From: the human T2T-CHM13v2.0 reference genome, Homo sapiens
Assembly: GCF_009914755.1 (NCBI RefSeq)
Contig: NC_060932.1
Length of the DNA stretch: 64,000 bases
Strand: one strand, 5' to 3'
Shown here: in pieces, positions 37,111 to 46,149 of the stretch
How the letters are laid out: each line of letters starts with the position of its first letter
Numbering within the stretch: position 1 is the first letter of the stretch
Program-made: the position numbers and the translations under genes
Notes under the pieces: generated by a model
What the model was told of the DNA's origin: nothing
Database searches by the model: none
Seen by the model: only the letters and a program-made list of their open reading frames with translations

Positions 37111-37423
37111 ACTAGTAAATGGCAGATTGAGGATTTTTAACAACAGTGAATGATGCCTCTCAAATACTGCTCTTTCATTGAATGAAAAGTACATACTTTT
37201 TTTAAAAATTTTATTATTATTATACTTTAGGTTTTAGGGTACATGTGCACAACGTGCAGGTTTGTTACATATGTATACATATGCCATGTTGGCATGCTGC
37301 ACCCATTAACTCATCATTTAGCATTAGGTGTATCTCCTAATGCTATCCCTTCCCCCTATCCCCACCACACAACTGTCCCCGGTGTGTGATGTTCCCCTTC
37401 CTGTGTCCATGTGTTCTCATTGT

Positions 37424-41257
<3,834 letters not shown>

Positions 41258-41524
41258 TATGATGTTAGCTAGTTATTTTGCTCATTAGTTGATGCAGTTT
41301 CTTCCTAGTCTTGAAGGTCTTTACAATTTGGCATGTTTTTGCAGTGGCTGTTACCGGTTGTTCCTTTCCATGTTTAGTGCTTCCTTCAGGAGCTCTTTTA
41401 GGGCAGGCCTGGTGGTGACAAAATCTCTCAGCATTTGCTTGTCTGTAAAGGATTTTATTTCTCCTTCACTTATGAAGCTTAGTTTGGCTGGATATGAAAT
41501 TCTGGGTTGAAAATTCTTTTCTTG

Positions 41525-41672
41525 GCAGCCGCCGCCGCCCGACCGCCGGGAGGATGGAGTTCAGCGGGCAGCGGAGCTGTCTCAGTCTTTGCCGCCGCGC
41601 CGGCGAGCGCCGCCTGGGAGGCAGCGGCTGGAGGAGCGGACGGGCCCCGCGGGGCCCAAGGGCAAGGAGCAG
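41525..41672 (+). pseudogene. MAST2: Transduced fragment of MAST2 exon 1 at the SVA 5' end
   Basis: Translates QPPPPDRREDGVQRAAELSQSLPPRRRAPPGRQRLEERTGPAGPKGKEQ, matching the MAST2 N-terminus as recalled (PEGKEQ in MAST2). Ends at GAGCAG and joins SVA Alu-like CCGCCTGCCTTGGCC. Confidence 0.9.
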
Positions 41673-41709
41673 CCGCCTGCCTTGGCCTCCCAAAGTGCCG
41701 AGATTGCAG

Positions 41710-42776
41710 CCTCTGCCCGGCTGCCACCCCGTCTGGGAAGTGAGGAGCGTCTCTGCCTGGCCGCCCATCGTCTGGGATGTGAGGAGCCCCTCTGCCTGGC
41801 TGCCCAGTCTGGAAAGTGAGGAGCGTCTCCGCCCGGCCGCCATCCCATCTAGGAAGTGAGGAGCGCCTCTTCCCAGCCGCCATCACATCTAGGAAGTGAG
41901 GAGCGTCTCTGCCCGGCCGCCCATCGTCTGAGATGTGGGGAGCGCCTCTGCCCCGCCGCCCCATCTGGGATGTGAGGAGCGCCTCTGCCCGGCCGAGACC
42001 CCGTCTGGGAGGTGAGGAGCGTCTCTGCCCGGCCGCCCCGTCTGAGAAGTGAGGAGACCCTCTGCCTGGCAACCACCCCGTCTGAGAAGTGAGGAGCCCC
42101 TCCGCCCGGCAGCTGCCCCGTCTGAGAAGTGAGGAGCCTCTCCGCCCGGCAGCCGCCCCATCCGGGAGGGAGGTGGGGGGGTCAGCCCCCTGCCCGGCCA
42201 GCCGCCCCGTCCGGGAGGTGAGGGGCGCCTCTGCCCGGCCGCCCCTACTGGGAAGTGAGGAGCCCCTCAGCCCGGCCAGCCACCCCGTCCGGGAGGGAGA
42301 TGGGGGGGTCAGCCCCCCCACCCGGCCAGCCGCCCCGTCCGGGAGGGAGGTAGGGGGGTCAGCCCTCCGCCCGGCCAGCCGCCCCGTCTGGGAGGTGAGG
42401 GGCGCCTCTGCCCAGCCGCCCCTACTGGGAAGTGAGGAGCCCCTCTGCCCGGCCAGCCGCCCCGTCCGGGAGGGAGGTGGGGGGGTCAGCCCCCCGCCTG
42501 GCCAGCCGCCCTGTCCGGGAGGGAGGTGGGGGGGTCAGCCCTCCGCCCGGCCAGCCGCCCCGTCTGGGAGGTGAGGGGCGCCTCTGCCCGGCCGCCCCTA
42601 CTGGGAAGTGAGGAGCCCCTCTGCCCGGCCAGCCGCCCCGTCTGGGAGGGAGGTGGGGGGGTCGGCCCCCCGCCCGGCCAGCCGCCCCGTCCGGGAGGTG
42701 AGGGGCACCTCTGCCCGGCCGCCCCTACTGGGAAGTGAGGAGCCCCTCTGCCCGGCCACCACCCCGTCTGGGAGGT
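41710..42776 (+). repeat. SVA VNTR (GC-rich ~37-50 bp units with G-runs)
   Basis: Tandem units such as gtgaggagcgtctctgcccggccgccccgtctggga and gggagggaggtggggggtcagcccc. Confidence 0.92.
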
Positions 42777-44706
42777 GTGCCCAACAGCTCATTGAGAACG
42801 GGCCAGGATGACAATGGCGGCTTTGTGGAATAGAAAGGCGGGAAAGGTGGGGAAAAGATTGAGAAATCGGATGGTTGCCGTGTCTGTGTAGAAAGAAGTA
42901 GACATGGGAGACTTTTCATTTTGTTCTGCACTAAGAAAAATTCCTCTGCCTTGGGATCCTGTTGATCTGTGACCTTACCCCCAACCCTGTGCTCTCTGAA
43001 ACATGTGCTGTGTCCACTCAGGGTTAAATGGATTAAGGGCGGTGCAAGATGTGCTTTGTTAAACAGATGCTTGAAGGCAGCATGCTCGTTAAGAGTCATC
43101 ACCACTCCCTAATCTCAAGTACCCAGGGACACAAACACTGCGGAAGGCCGTGGGGTCCTCTGCCTAGGAAAACCAGAGACCTTTGTTCACTTGTTTATCT
43201 GCTGACCTTCCCTCCACTATTGTCCCATGACCCTGCCAAATCCCCCTCTGTGAGAAACACCCAAGAATTATCAATAAAAAAATAAATTAAAAAAAAAAAA
43301 AAAAGAAAATTCTTTTCTTTAAGAATGTTGAATATTGGCCCCCACTCTCTTCTGGCTTGCAGAGTTTCTGCCGAGAGATCAGCTGTTAGTCTGATGGGCT
43401 TCCCTTTGTGGGTAACCCGACCTTTCTCTCTGGCTGCCCTTAACATTTTTTCCCTCATTTCAACTTCGGTGAATTTGACAATTAGGTGTCTTGGAGTTGC
43501 TCTTCTCGAGGAGTATCTTTGTGGAGTTCTCTGTATTTCCTGAATTTGAATGTTGGCCTGCCTTGCTAGGTTTGGGAAGTTCTCCTGGATAATATCCTGC
43601 AGAGTGTTCTCCCACTTGGTTCCATTCTCCCTGTCACTTTCAGGTACACCAATCAGGACGTAGATTTGGTCTTTTCACATAGTTCCATATTTCTTGGAGG
43701 CTTTGTTCGTTTCTTTTCTTTTTTCTCTAAACTTCTCTTCTCGCTTCATTTCATTCACTTTGGCTTCCATCGCTGATACTCTTTCTTCCAGTTGATCGCA
43801 TTGGCTACTGAGGCTTGTGCATTCGTCACATAGTTCTCGTGCCGTGGTTTTCAGCTCCATCAGCTCTTTTAAGGACTTCTCTGCATTGGTTATTCTAGTT
43901 AGCCATTTGTCTAATTTTTTTTCAAGGTTTTTAACTTCTTTGCCATCGGTTCAAACCTCCTCCTTTAGCTCGGAATAGTTTGATCTTCTGAAGCCTTCTT
44001 CTCTCAACTCATCAAGGCCATTCTCCGTCCAGCTTTGTTCTGTTGCTGGTGAGGAGCTGCGTTCCTTTGGAGGAGGAGAGGCGCTTTGATTTTTAGAGTT
44101 TCTGGTTTTTCTGCTTTGGTTTTTCCCCATCTTGGTGGTTTTATCTACCTTTGGTCTTTGATGATGGTGACGTACAGATGGGTTTTTGGTGTGGATGTCC
44201 TTTCTGTTTGTTAGTTTTCCTTCTAACAGTCAGGACCCTCAGCTGCAGGCCTGTTGGAGTTTGCTGGAGGTCCACTCCAGACCCTGTTTGTCTGGGTATC
44301 AGGCAGCAGTGGCTGCAGAACAGCGGATATTGGTGAACCGCAAATGCTGCTGTCTAATCGTTCTTCTGGAGGTTTTGTCTCAGAGGAGTACCCAGCCGTG
44401 TGAAGTGTCAGTGCGCCCCTACTGGGGGGTGCCTCCCAGTTAGGCTACTCGGGGGTCAGGGACCCACTTGAGGAGGCAGTCTGCCCGTTCTCGGATCTCA
44501 AGCTGCGTGCTGGGAGAACCACTACTCTCTTCAAAGCTGTCAGACAGGGACATTTAAGTCTGCAGGGGTTTCTGCTGCCTTTTGTTTGTCTGTGCCCTGC
44601 CCCCAGAGGTGGAGCCTACAGAGGCAGGCAGGCCTCCTTGAGCTGCGGTGGGCTCCACCCAGTTCGAGTTTCCGGGCTGCTTTGTTTACCTACTCAAGCC
44701 TGGGCA

Positions 44707-44781
44707 ATGGTGGGCGCCCCTCCCCCAGCCTCGCTGCTGCCTTGCAGTTTGATCTCAGACTGCTGGGCTAGCAATGAGTGA
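44707..44781 (+). pseudogene. Truncated L1 antisense ORF0
   Basis: ATG at 44707 gives MVGAPPPASLLPCSLISDCWASNE*, the recognisable ORF0 N-terminus, ending at a premature TGA. Confidence 0.75.
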
Positions 44782-46149
44782 GGCTCCATGGGCGTAGGAT
44801 CCTCCAAGCCAGGTGCAGGATATAATCTCCTGGTGTGCCATTAAGCCCGTTGGAAAAGTGCAGTTTTAGGGTGGGAGTGACCCGATTTTCCAGGTGCCGT
44901 CTGTCACCCCTTTCTTTGACTAGGAAAGGGAATTCCCTGACCCCTTGCGCTTCCCAGGTGAGGCGATGCCTCACCCTGCTTCGGCTCACGCATGGTGCGT
45001 TGCACCCACTGTCCTGCACCCACTGTCCGGCACTCCCCAGTGAGATGAATCCGGTACCTCAGTTGGAAATGCAGAAATCGCCCGTCTTCTGTGTCGCTCA
45101 CGCTGGGAGCTGTAGACTGGAGATGTTCCTATTCGGCCATCTTGGCTCCACCCCCAAGTAGATACTTTTTAAGGTATTCCCTACAAGTTGCTAGGAACAC
45201 AGGAATCTAAGAACACAGAAATCTAATTCTAAGATACATGAAATCTATCATCTAGAGGTACAGCTTGCAAAGCAACAAATAGAATTTTACCTGACATAGA
45301 CTTTCTTTTGAAAAAGAAGCTGTTTGAACAATATATGATGAACATCTAAAGTAAAACAACTACTCTTCTTTTTGGTTAAGTTTGCAATGAAGTGAAAAAC
45401 ATTCTTTAACCAATAAAAACATGTTTGTGTATTCTGAAACTTAAACATTAATGCTGAAATTCTGAATATCCTCATTTATATCTCCTTTCAGTTGCAAAGG
45501 TATTAAAATTTAATTTTTTTTTGTAAAAGCATGTTTTTTTAACACAAGAAACACTCGATTTTTAGTTAGCAGTACTAGTAGGTTAAGAATAAACTATAGA
45601 AAATATAAATCTAAATAGAAAAGCACAGTAGGCATGTTATTTTTATCTGCCAAATGCCTGTTAGAATCTTCCAGTGATCTCTCAAGTATGATTTGGGGAA
45701 TTGCTCTCCTCTATTGAGATCTTGTGATTCTGGTGCAGTTCCCAATCACAGCACCTTGCTCCACTTCTGGTTAATCATCACACTCTATCTGCAGAACAGT
45801 GACTAATGCAGGTATAGATATTTGGCTGAAACAGCTCAGAATTGTTCCTTGAAATTTTTTACTGCACAACTGGGAAAGACCTCTGCAGCTAAAGGGCTGT
45901 GGTCCCAGAGCTGCTAATGGCCATATTCCTCAAACCATGAAGAGCCTAAGGAAACAAAAACCATGCAGATGCAGACAGGAAATGGAGACACAGAGGCTGA
46001 AGTCATCTGGTAGCAGGGAAAGGACTAGAGGGAGCACAGAAGGGAAGGAGAAAGAATAGGAGAGAAAGATCAGAAAGGGAAAGGAACAAGAGTGAGGGGA
46101 GCCAGCAGAAAGAAAGGGCAGAGAATGAAGCAGAAAGAAGGTGGGTAGT

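What the first reader, a model, noticed from the sequence alone, without database searches (positions are those of the whole stretch)
41509..43319. Gene-capturing SVA_F1 carrying MAST2 exon 1, nested in ORF1 of a full-length L1 inside a TNKS intron
Seen: 148 nt encoding a MAST2-like N-terminal peptide replace the SVA hexamer and most of the Alu-like domain. The junction GAGCAG|CCGCCTGCC looks like exon-to-cryptic-acceptor splicing. The 15-bp TSD is perfect, with a TT/GAAA L1-endonuclease-type site, and there is no 3' transduction after the poly(A). Established: SVA_F1 is a described human-specific subfamily created by splicing of MAST2 exon 1 into an SVA, so the family itself is not new. Inference: this copy is young, possibly polymorphic, and puts a CpG-island-derived promoter fragment antisense to TNKS.
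Basis: partly seen in the sequence, partly recalled or inferred. Interest (0 to 1): 0.8.

Follow-up and report, generated by a model that had tools for sequence, protein, structure and literature searches.

The report
Ordinary SVA_F1 retrotransposon in TNKS intron
This is a normal member of the already described human SVA_F1 family of jumping elements, which carry a piece of the MAST2 gene; it sits inside an old, dead L1 element in an intron of the tankyrase gene and shows nothing new.

Summary
Window 41524-43304 (+ strand) is a 1,781-bp SVA_F1. It consists of one non-templated G, 148 nt of MAST2 exon 1, a 36-nt Alu-like remnant, a 1.07-kb VNTR, SINE-R, two AATAAA signals and a 16-A tail. A perfect 15-bp target-site duplication flanks it.

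- **MAST2 origin:** the 148 nt match one chr1 locus at 146 of 148 bases. Only there are they followed by a GT intron.
- **Splice junction:** three canonical SVAs carry a pyrimidine tract and AG exactly before the junction base. The junction is therefore an exon-to-acceptor splice.
- **Family size:** the same junction occurs at 79 places in this genome. Published work counts 84 reference copies.
- **Host element:** the L1 is about 6.16 kb, on the minus strand (sense to TNKS), with its own duplication and broken reading frames. The insertion splits the C-terminal domain of ORF1p.
- **Orientation:** the SVA is antisense to TNKS.

The claim that the copy is young and possibly polymorphic is not supported. 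Its private changes are at or above the family median, and it is absent from a published list of 543 non-reference SVAs.

A side result: 11 of 78 genomic copies share its exact 5' end, and most are preceded by an extra G. This points to a recurrent start site rather than random truncation.

Known family; low interest.

The parts
41509..41523 (.). 5' copy of the 15-bp target-site duplication GAAAATTCTTTTCTT (L1 ORF1 sequence). The preceding bases are GGGTT, which gives a TT/GAAA-type site.
   Evidence: It is single-copy in L1 paralogues L090 and L091.
41524..41524 (+). Non-templated G at the 5' end of the element; the source gene has C here.
   Evidence: A G at this place is found in 55 of 71 distinct-flank copies, against 15.5% G in the flanks.
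41525..41672 (+). The last 148 nt of MAST2 exon 1 (coding residues 11-59, no ATG). 78% G+C, 20 CpG, 2 private CpG transitions.
41673..41708 (+). Remnant of the SVA Alu-like domain, starting at the base after the cryptic AG acceptor.
   Evidence: alignment A1 with three canonical SVAs (L051-L053).
41709..42777 (+). SVA VNTR, units of about 37-50 nt, about 26 copies of a 40-nt period.
42778..43288 (+). SINE-R domain with AATAAA at 43273-43278 and 43281-43286.
   Evidence: It is 97.9-99.0% identical to the SINE-R of 20 other F1 copies.
43289..43304 (+). Pure poly(A) tail, 16 A.
43305..43319 (.). 3' copy of the target-site duplication.
37202..41523 (-). 3' part of the host L1. It holds the end of the ORF1 C-terminal domain (41354-41523), the ORF2 endonuclease (about 40178-41272), reverse transcriptase (about 39002-40206), the 3' UTR and a short A run. 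ORF2 is broken into many pieces. The L1 duplication copy AAGTACATACTTTTT lies at 37187-37201.
43320..45155 (-). 5' part of the host L1: 5' UTR from 45155, then the ORF1 coiled-coil/trimerisation region, the RRM and the start of the C-terminal domain, with two in-frame stops. The L1 duplication copy AAGTAGATACTTTTT lies at 45156-45170.

Best explanation
This is one fixed-structure copy of the human SVA_F1 retrotransposon subfamily.

[quoted passage not shown] The chimeric RNA was retrotransposed and became a source.

Origin of this copy:
- It was made from an F1 RNA whose 5' end lay 148 nt before the MAST2/SVA junction. This is inferred from the extra, probably cap-derived, G and from ten other copies that share the same end.
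- The L1 machinery inserted it by target-primed reverse transcription at a TT/GAAA site, creating a 15-bp duplication. This is shown by the sequence hallmarks.
- The target lay in the codons for the C-terminal domain of ORF1p of an older, roughly 6.16-kb L1. That L1 lies in the sense orientation in a large TNKS intron, 21.5 kb upstream, in transcript direction, of the exon at 20007-19971.
- The SVA is antisense to TNKS and to the L1.

Most likely it is now a silenced intronic passenger with no measurable effect on TNKS. This last point is inference from general knowledge of SVA repression and was not tested.
For: 1. MAST2 part and junction.
- The 149-nt 5' segment has at least 40 genomic matches (40 scored of 80 candidates).
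- Of the 30 loci returned, 29 continue CAG|CCGCCTGCC. Only L024 on contig 1 continues CAG|GTAGGG, which marks the gene itself.
- Alignment A1 shows that the three canonical SVAs fetched (hexamer plus full Alu-like domain) carry CCTCCACCTCCCAG just before the junction base.
- In a wider pattern search, 25 of the first 100 listed places show that same AG context by my count. The rest are Alu-antisense.

2. Family.
- The junction 27-mer occurs at 79 places (72 exact, 7 with one mismatch). The reversed control gives 0.
- Passages of PMC12593883 give 84 reference copies and a single ancestral splice at SVA_F consensus position 385.
- A passage of PMC6139936 describes the same acceptor.

3. SVA body: VNTR, and a SINE-R 97.9-99.0% identical to 20 other F1 copies.

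4. L1-type insertion.
- The 15/15 duplication, the 16-A tail and the AATAAA signals are present.
- In L1 paralogues L090 and L091 the left and right flanks overlap by exactly the 15 nt, which are present once.

5. Host L1.
- Pfam finds the ORF1p trimerisation domain, the RRM and dsRBD-like profile positions 1-22 on one side of the insertion.
- Profile positions 18-65 lie on the other side. The 5-residue overlap equals the duplication.
- Endonuclease and reverse-transcriptase domains lie on the minus strand.
- The L1 5' end and its own 14/15 duplication are present.

6. TNKS strand: AG and GT border both annotated exons on the minus strand.
Against: Nothing contradicts the identification. The limits are these.
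- Human specificity, meaning absence from apes, could not be tested because no ape genome is held.
- SVA_F diagnostic positions were not compared with a curated consensus because no repeat library is held.
- At 43105 and 43122-43123 this copy differs from 17 and 19 of 20 other F1 copies and agrees with L047. This suggests a minor sub-lineage or gene conversion and was not pursued.
- The name MAST2 for the chr1 locus rests on the published annotation of identical F1 sequences (Table S2 of PMC12593883) and on my recollection of the gene's position and N-terminus. No gene table for chr1 was available.
Confidence: 0.97

Rival explanations
1. The copy is an ordinary 5'-truncated SVA_F1. Reverse transcription of a longer F1 RNA (more than 320 nt of MAST2) stopped by chance 148 nt before the junction, and the shared end has no meaning.
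For: PMC12593883 defines a full-length F1 as having more than 320 bp of MAST2 (passage). By that rule this copy counts as truncated. MAST2 lengths in the genome range from about 15 to 382 nt over 42 length classes.
Against: - 11 of 78 alignable copies end at exactly this base, which is the largest single class. All have unrelated flanks and all are preceded by G where the gene has C.
- Across the family, 55 of 71 distinct-flank copies have an extra G, against 15.5% G in the flanks (binomial p about 8e-31). From established knowledge of L1-mediated copies, this is the mark of a capped RNA 5' end copied to completion.
- Four further non-reference F1 insertions in Table S2 of PMC12593883 begin with the same 30 nt.
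Confidence: 0.2
2. The 148-nt class, this copy included, descends from one truncated master element that itself begins at this base. It would then be a sub-lineage rather than a recurrent start site.
For: The 5' end, including the extra G, is identical in 11 copies. Polymorphic members of the class exist.
Against: - The class is split 6 T to 5 C at the one common variant just after the junction, much like the whole family.
- The VNTR of this copy is most like L008, L035, L033 and L012, whose MAST2 lengths are 296, 146, 89 and 231 nt. The eight other 148-nt copies that were comparable rank 7th to 37th of 43.
- In SINE-R this copy shares three variant bases with L047 (301 nt) and not with the 148-nt copies L045 and L050.
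- Caveat: VNTRs change quickly and the common variant is a CpG site, so none of this is decisive.
Confidence: 0.2
3. The MAST2-like stretch is a fragment of a processed MAST2 pseudogene or a segmental duplication that merely lies next to an unrelated SVA.
For: None beyond the presence of gene-derived sequence next to a repeat.
Against: - One 15-bp duplication brackets the MAST2 part and the SVA together, with the poly(A) tail at the far end.
- The junction is identical at 79 dispersed places.
- The MAST2 part stops exactly at the exon-1 donor.
- The flanks are contiguous L1 sequence.
Confidence: 0.01

Closest known systems
SVA_F1 (MAST2 exon 1 - SVA_F chimeric subfamily; Damert et al. 2009, Hancks et al. 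2009, Bantysh & Buzdin 2009, as cited in PMC12593883 and PMC6139936)
   Same: It has the same MAST2 exon-1 sequence and the same splice junction. It lacks the hexamer and most of the Alu-like domain. It has the VNTR, SINE-R, poly(A) and an L1-type duplication. It is a member.
   Different: It carries only 148 nt of MAST2, where the longest copies have up to 382 nt. Its Alu-like plus VNTR stretch is shorter: 1,105 nt, against 380-2,559 nt (mostly 1,400-2,300) in 20 other copies. It has no 5' or 3' transduction.
CH10_SVA_F / H10_1-derived SVA_F1 transduction group
   Same: It has the same MAST2/SVA core.
   Different: Those copies carry Alu sequence transduced from chromosome 10 at one or both ends (PMC10681720 and PMC12593883 passages). 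In this genome, 7 of the 8 copies with 364 nt of MAST2 share one 5' flank. The TNKS copy has no such flank.
Canonical SVA_F
   Same: From the acceptor onward it has the same Alu-like tail, VNTR and SINE-R. PMC12593883 states that F and F1 are identical downstream of position 385.
   Different: Canonical copies start with (CCCTCT)n and a full Alu-like domain (L051-L053).
[quoted passage not shown]
   Same: The principle is the same: a GC-rich first exon of a kinase gene replaces the 5' part of an SVA through splicing (PMC6139936 passages).
   Different: The gene, the species and the SVA parent differ. It is not related by descent.

Membership tests
SVA_F1 | 5' part derived from MAST2 exon 1 and ending at the exon's 3' end | tested here: met
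   146 of 148 nt are identical to L024, the only locus of 30 where the stretch is followed by a GT intron. The name MAST2 is taken from published annotation of identical F1 sequences.
SVA_F1 | Junction to the cryptic AG acceptor at the 3' end of the SVA Alu-like domain | tested here: met
   The junction 27-mer is shared with 78 other places. Three canonical SVAs have ...CCTCCCAG just before the junction base. The consensus coordinate 385 given in PMC12593883 was not checked.
SVA_F1 | No (CCCTCT)n hexamer; most of the Alu-like domain absent | tested here: met
SVA_F1 | VNTR, SINE-R, polyadenylation signal and poly(A) tail | tested here: met
SVA_F1 | SVA_F-type diagnostic bases in SINE-R | tested here: inconclusive
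   No curated consensus is held. The copy is 97.9-99.0% identical to 20 other F1 copies, but at 43105 and 43122-43123 it carries the minority state.
SVA_F1 | Human-specific (absent at the orthologous site in other apes) | not testable with these tools
   No ape genome is held. Human specificity of the family is stated in PMC12593883 and PMC6139936.
L1-mediated (target-primed) insertion | Target-site duplication, A-rich endonuclease-type site, poly(A) tail abutting the duplication | tested here: met
   There is a 15/15 duplication. The site reads GGGTT/GAAAAT on the top strand. The tail has 16 A. The target is single-copy in L1 paralogues. That TT/GAAA is a listed variant of TT/AAAA is recalled, not tested.
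LINE-1 (host element) | 5' UTR start, ORF1p domains, ORF2p endonuclease and reverse transcriptase, A-rich 3' end, own duplication | tested here: met
   Pfam finds PF17489, PF02994, PF17490, PF03372 and PF00078 on the minus strand. The ends and a 14/15 duplication are present. The length is 6,158 bp without the insert. The reading frames are not intact.

The most novel reading that the evidence does not exclude
The base 148 nt upstream of the MAST2/SVA junction is a discrete, repeatedly used transcription start inside the MAST2-derived part of SVA_F1 source elements. Copies like the TNKS one would then be complete cDNAs of capped RNAs, not truncated leftovers. A 148-nt MAST2 remnant would still belong to a currently mobile class, because four non-reference insertions share this end. 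If the remnant keeps promoter activity, the TNKS copy could start transcripts running antisense through the TNKS intron.

The primary 2009 papers, which I could not read, may already describe the 5'-end clustering and the extra G.
Probability: 0.4. Interest if true: 0.25.

Novelty: already known. Interest (0 to 1): 0.1.

Why it matters
It matters little beyond correct annotation. The element shows why part of it (41544-41615) escapes repeat masking: according to PMC12593883, standard repeat libraries hold no SVA_F1 consensus. That gap can make the MAST2 piece look like unexplained exon-like sequence. SVA_F1 is reported as the most active SVA lineage among polymorphic insertions, so each reference copy is a candidate source element and a candidate regulatory variant. 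Nothing here singles out the TNKS copy. The family-wide 5'-end pattern (extra G, preferred start at -148) is a small, testable point about where F1 RNAs begin.

Tried and rejected
- The primary papers (PMC2775593, PMC2775590) are not held. What they say about 5' ends, about a copy in TNKS or about polymorphism is unknown to me.
- Literature searches for this copy found nothing relevant:
  - TNKS + SVA_F + retrotransposon: 0 papers.
  - TNKS + SINE-VNTR-Alu: 0 papers.
  - TNKS + SVA + retrotransposon as whole words: 1 paper, on mouse VL30 and irrelevant.
- Supplements were searched for TNKS:
  - PMC12593883: 0 hits in 2 files.
  - PMC10681720: 0 hits, but only one 7,245-character file is held, so its tables of reference copies were not seen.
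- No canonical SVA and no second L1 ORF1 region lay in the window or in the loci already held. Examples were therefore fetched from the genome.
As a result, full 3' ends were compared for only 20 of the 78 other copies. The VNTR was compared for 43.
- I tried to decide between a 148-nt lineage and a recurrent start from the first 385 nt after the junction. That stretch has only 15 columns with a minor state in 4 or more copies, most of them at CpG sites, which is too little for a tree. No tree was built.
- A rough age from private changes is about 4 Myr, with Poisson limits of roughly 1-11 Myr. It rests on 3 events in 1,046 nt with 57 CpG and on mutation rates recalled from memory. It is too wide to be useful, so I give it no weight. 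Only the ranking within the family is used.
Full report
**What is at the coordinates**

The plus strand of window 41509-43319 reads as follows:
- the 15-mer GAAAATTCTTTTCTT;
- a G-rich, CpG-rich stretch of 149 nt;
- 36 nt of Alu-like sequence;
- a 1,069-nt array of 37-50-nt repeats at 41709-42777;
- about 510 nt of unique sequence ending in two AATAAA hexamers (43273, 43281);
- a pure run of 16 A at 43289-43304;
- the same 15-mer again.

The two 15-mers are identical in 15 of 15 positions. The element between them is 1,781 nt long, 66% G+C, with 112 CpG.

**The 5' part is MAST2 exon 1, joined by splicing**

The 149-nt stretch was searched in the window's own assembly, which is held as G000. 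It gave 40 scored matches out of 80 candidates. In 29 of the 30 loci returned, the window's own included, the stretch is followed by CCGCCTGCCTTGG. In one locus, L024 on contig 1 at 45.68 Mb, it is followed by GTAGGGCGGG, a splice donor. That locus also extends upstream through an ATG 177 nt before the donor.

Read from that ATG, exon 1 encodes 59 residues. The window copy encodes residues 11-59 with one change, E to K. It therefore carries MAST2 coding sequence but not the start codon.

Against L024 the copy has 146 of 148 identical bases. Both differences are transitions at CpG sites, and both are private among the 43 copies that have at least 148 nt. The first base, 41524, is a G where the gene has C.

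On the SVA side, three canonical SVAs were fetched from the genome. They have a CCCTCT hexamer array and a full Alu-like domain. They align with the window copy from the junction base onward and carry CCTCCACCTCCCAG immediately before it.

Passages of PMC12593883 and PMC6139936 describe exactly this event as the origin of SVA_F1.

**Family size and published status**

The 27-nt junction string, allowing one mismatch, occurs at 79 places in the genome: 40 forward and 39 reverse, 72 of them exact. The reversed control occurs 0 times.

Published counts are at least 84 copies in older reference assemblies and 139 non-reference copies in 32 people. The subfamily was described in 2009 by three groups (PMC12593883 passages; PMC10681720 passages). 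Those three primary papers were not available to me.

PMC12593883 also states that the repeat library used by RepeatMasker has no F1 consensus. This fits the hub's note that 41544-41615 is unmasked.

**Insertion mechanism**

The hallmarks of L1-mediated target-primed reverse transcription are present: the perfect duplication, the tail abutting it, and a top-strand site GGGTT/GAAAAT. That TT/GAAA is a catalogued variant of the TT/AAAA endonuclease site is my recollection, not a tool result.

As a stand-in for an empty allele, I compared the two flanks with two paralogous L1 copies, L090 and L091. In both, the left flank ends at position 1700 and the right flank begins at position 1686. The flanks thus overlap by exactly the 15-mer, which is present once. 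No extra sequence lies between the tail and the duplication, so there is no 3' transduction. No sequence lies between the 5' duplication and the extra G, so there is no 5' transduction either.

**The host L1 and the gene**

On the minus strand Pfam finds the following:
- the ORF1p trimerisation domain at 43678-43950;
- the RRM-type domain within 43198-43674;
- the dsRBD-like C-terminal domain at profile positions 1-22, running into the 3' duplication copy;
- the same domain at profile positions 18-65 in 41354-41560;
- endonuclease and reverse-transcriptase domains further down.

The five profile positions found twice are the five codons of the duplication (KEKNF).

The L1 starts at 45155 with the usual GGGGG-TGGAGCCAAGATGGCC on the minus strand and ends near 37202. 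It has its own 14/15 duplication at 37187-37201 and 45156-45170. Without the insert it measures 6,158 bp. It is full length in extent only. ORF1 has two in-frame stops, and ORF2 is in many pieces in different frames.

It is 93-95% identical over 1 kb to the two paralogues, so it is much older than the SVA. I infer that it will be shared with other apes.

The two annotated TNKS exons in the window are bordered by AG and GT on the minus strand. TNKS and the L1 therefore run on the minus strand and the SVA is antisense to both. It lies 21.5 kb from the nearest exon in the window.

**Is this copy young or polymorphic?**

Within the family it is not especially young. The evidence is:
- It has 2 private changes in the 148-nt MAST2 part. 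Of the 43 copies, 26 have none and 10 have one.
- It has none in the next 385 nt.
- It has two adjacent private bases in SINE-R, at 43151-43152. The 20 other copies range from 0 to 7 with a median of 1.
- Six of those 20 copies have no private SINE-R change at all.
- The tail is short, at 16 A.

The supplementary table of 543 non-reference SVAs in PMC12593883 lists gene names and positions. It holds no TNKS entry, and its first chromosome-8 entry is at 10.56 Mb. So the copy is not a non-reference insertion in that panel and is probably part of GRCh38. Whether some people lack it could not be tested.

**Side result on 5' ends**

I fetched at least 430 nt upstream and 400 nt downstream of all 79 junctions. 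BLAST aligned the MAST2 part of 78 of them; the 79th has only about 15 nt. Lengths fall into 42 classes from 35 to 382 nt:
- 148 nt: 11 copies, the window's included, all with unrelated flanks. This is the commonest class.
- 364 nt: 8 copies, 7 of which share one flank. This matches the published chromosome-10 transduction group.
- 89 nt: 6 copies.

In 61 of 78 copies (55 of 71 distinct flanks) the base before the first templated base is a G that the gene lacks. G makes up 15.5% of the flanks (p about 8e-31). From established knowledge, an untemplated G is the trace of the RNA cap. Most F1 copies therefore look like complete copies of RNAs that started at various points inside the MAST2-derived CpG island, and -148 is the favourite point.

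The 148-nt copies do not look like one lineage:
- They split 6 to 5 at the common C/T variant after the junction.
- The window copy's VNTR is closest to copies with 296, 146, 89 and 231 nt of MAST2, while the other 148-nt copies rank 7th to 37th of 43.
- Its three minority SINE-R bases are shared with a 301-nt copy.
- Four non-reference insertions in the published table begin with the same 30 nt. One of them, at chr5:151.17 Mb in GRCh38, probably corresponds to the 148-nt copy seen here on contig 5 at 151.7 Mb.

I rate a recurrent start site as more likely than a truncated master element or chance, but the evidence is thin. The 2009 papers may already cover it.

**Verdict**

The finding is a correctly read, ordinary member of a family described since 2009. 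The structure, junction, duplication, host L1 and orientation are all confirmed. Youth and polymorphism are not supported, and promoter activity is untested. Novelty: already known. Interest: low.

Noticed in passing
Loci L001-L005, L026, L027, L045, L050, L066, L067 (5' ends); window 41524: Eleven of 78 SVA_F1 copies in this genome start at the same base, 148 nt before the MAST2/SVA junction. All are preceded by a non-templated G and have unrelated flanks. L066 and L067 also have internal deletions of 13 and 8 nt in the MAST2 part.
   Followed up: partly
All 78 alignable SVA_F1 loci: An extra G precedes the first MAST2-templated base in 55 of 71 distinct-flank copies, against 15.5% G in the flanks. 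This suggests that most apparently '5'-truncated' F1 copies are complete cDNAs of capped RNAs.
   Followed up: partly
L082 (G000:C1:23832151-23832177) and L087 (G000:C6:15061675-15061701): Two F1 copies on different chromosomes share the same 25-nt 5' flank, the same 91-nt MAST2 length and the same junction mismatch. This looks like either a small 5' transduction pair or a duplicated segment.
   Followed up: no
L074 (G000:C16:1613801-1613827): This F1 copy has only about 15 nt of MAST2 sequence before the junction, the shortest seen.
   Followed up: no
window 43105, 43122-43123, 43151-43152: In SINE-R this copy carries C and CC where 17 and 19 of 20 other F1 copies carry A and AT. These bases are shared with L047. 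It also carries a private adjacent pair, TG instead of CA. Possible explanations are a minor sub-lineage, gene conversion or one dinucleotide event.
   Followed up: partly
window 37187-37201 and 45156-45170: The host L1 has its own 15-bp target-site duplication with one mismatch (AAGTACATACTTTTT / AAGTAGATACTTTTT) and a very short A run at its 3' end.
   Followed up: yes
L050/L006 (G000:C5:151705353-151705379): This 148-nt-class copy on contig 5 lies near the position of a non-reference F1 insertion listed at chr5:151166574 (GRCh38) in Table S2 of PMC12593883. If it is the same insertion, that copy is polymorphic in people.
   Followed up: no
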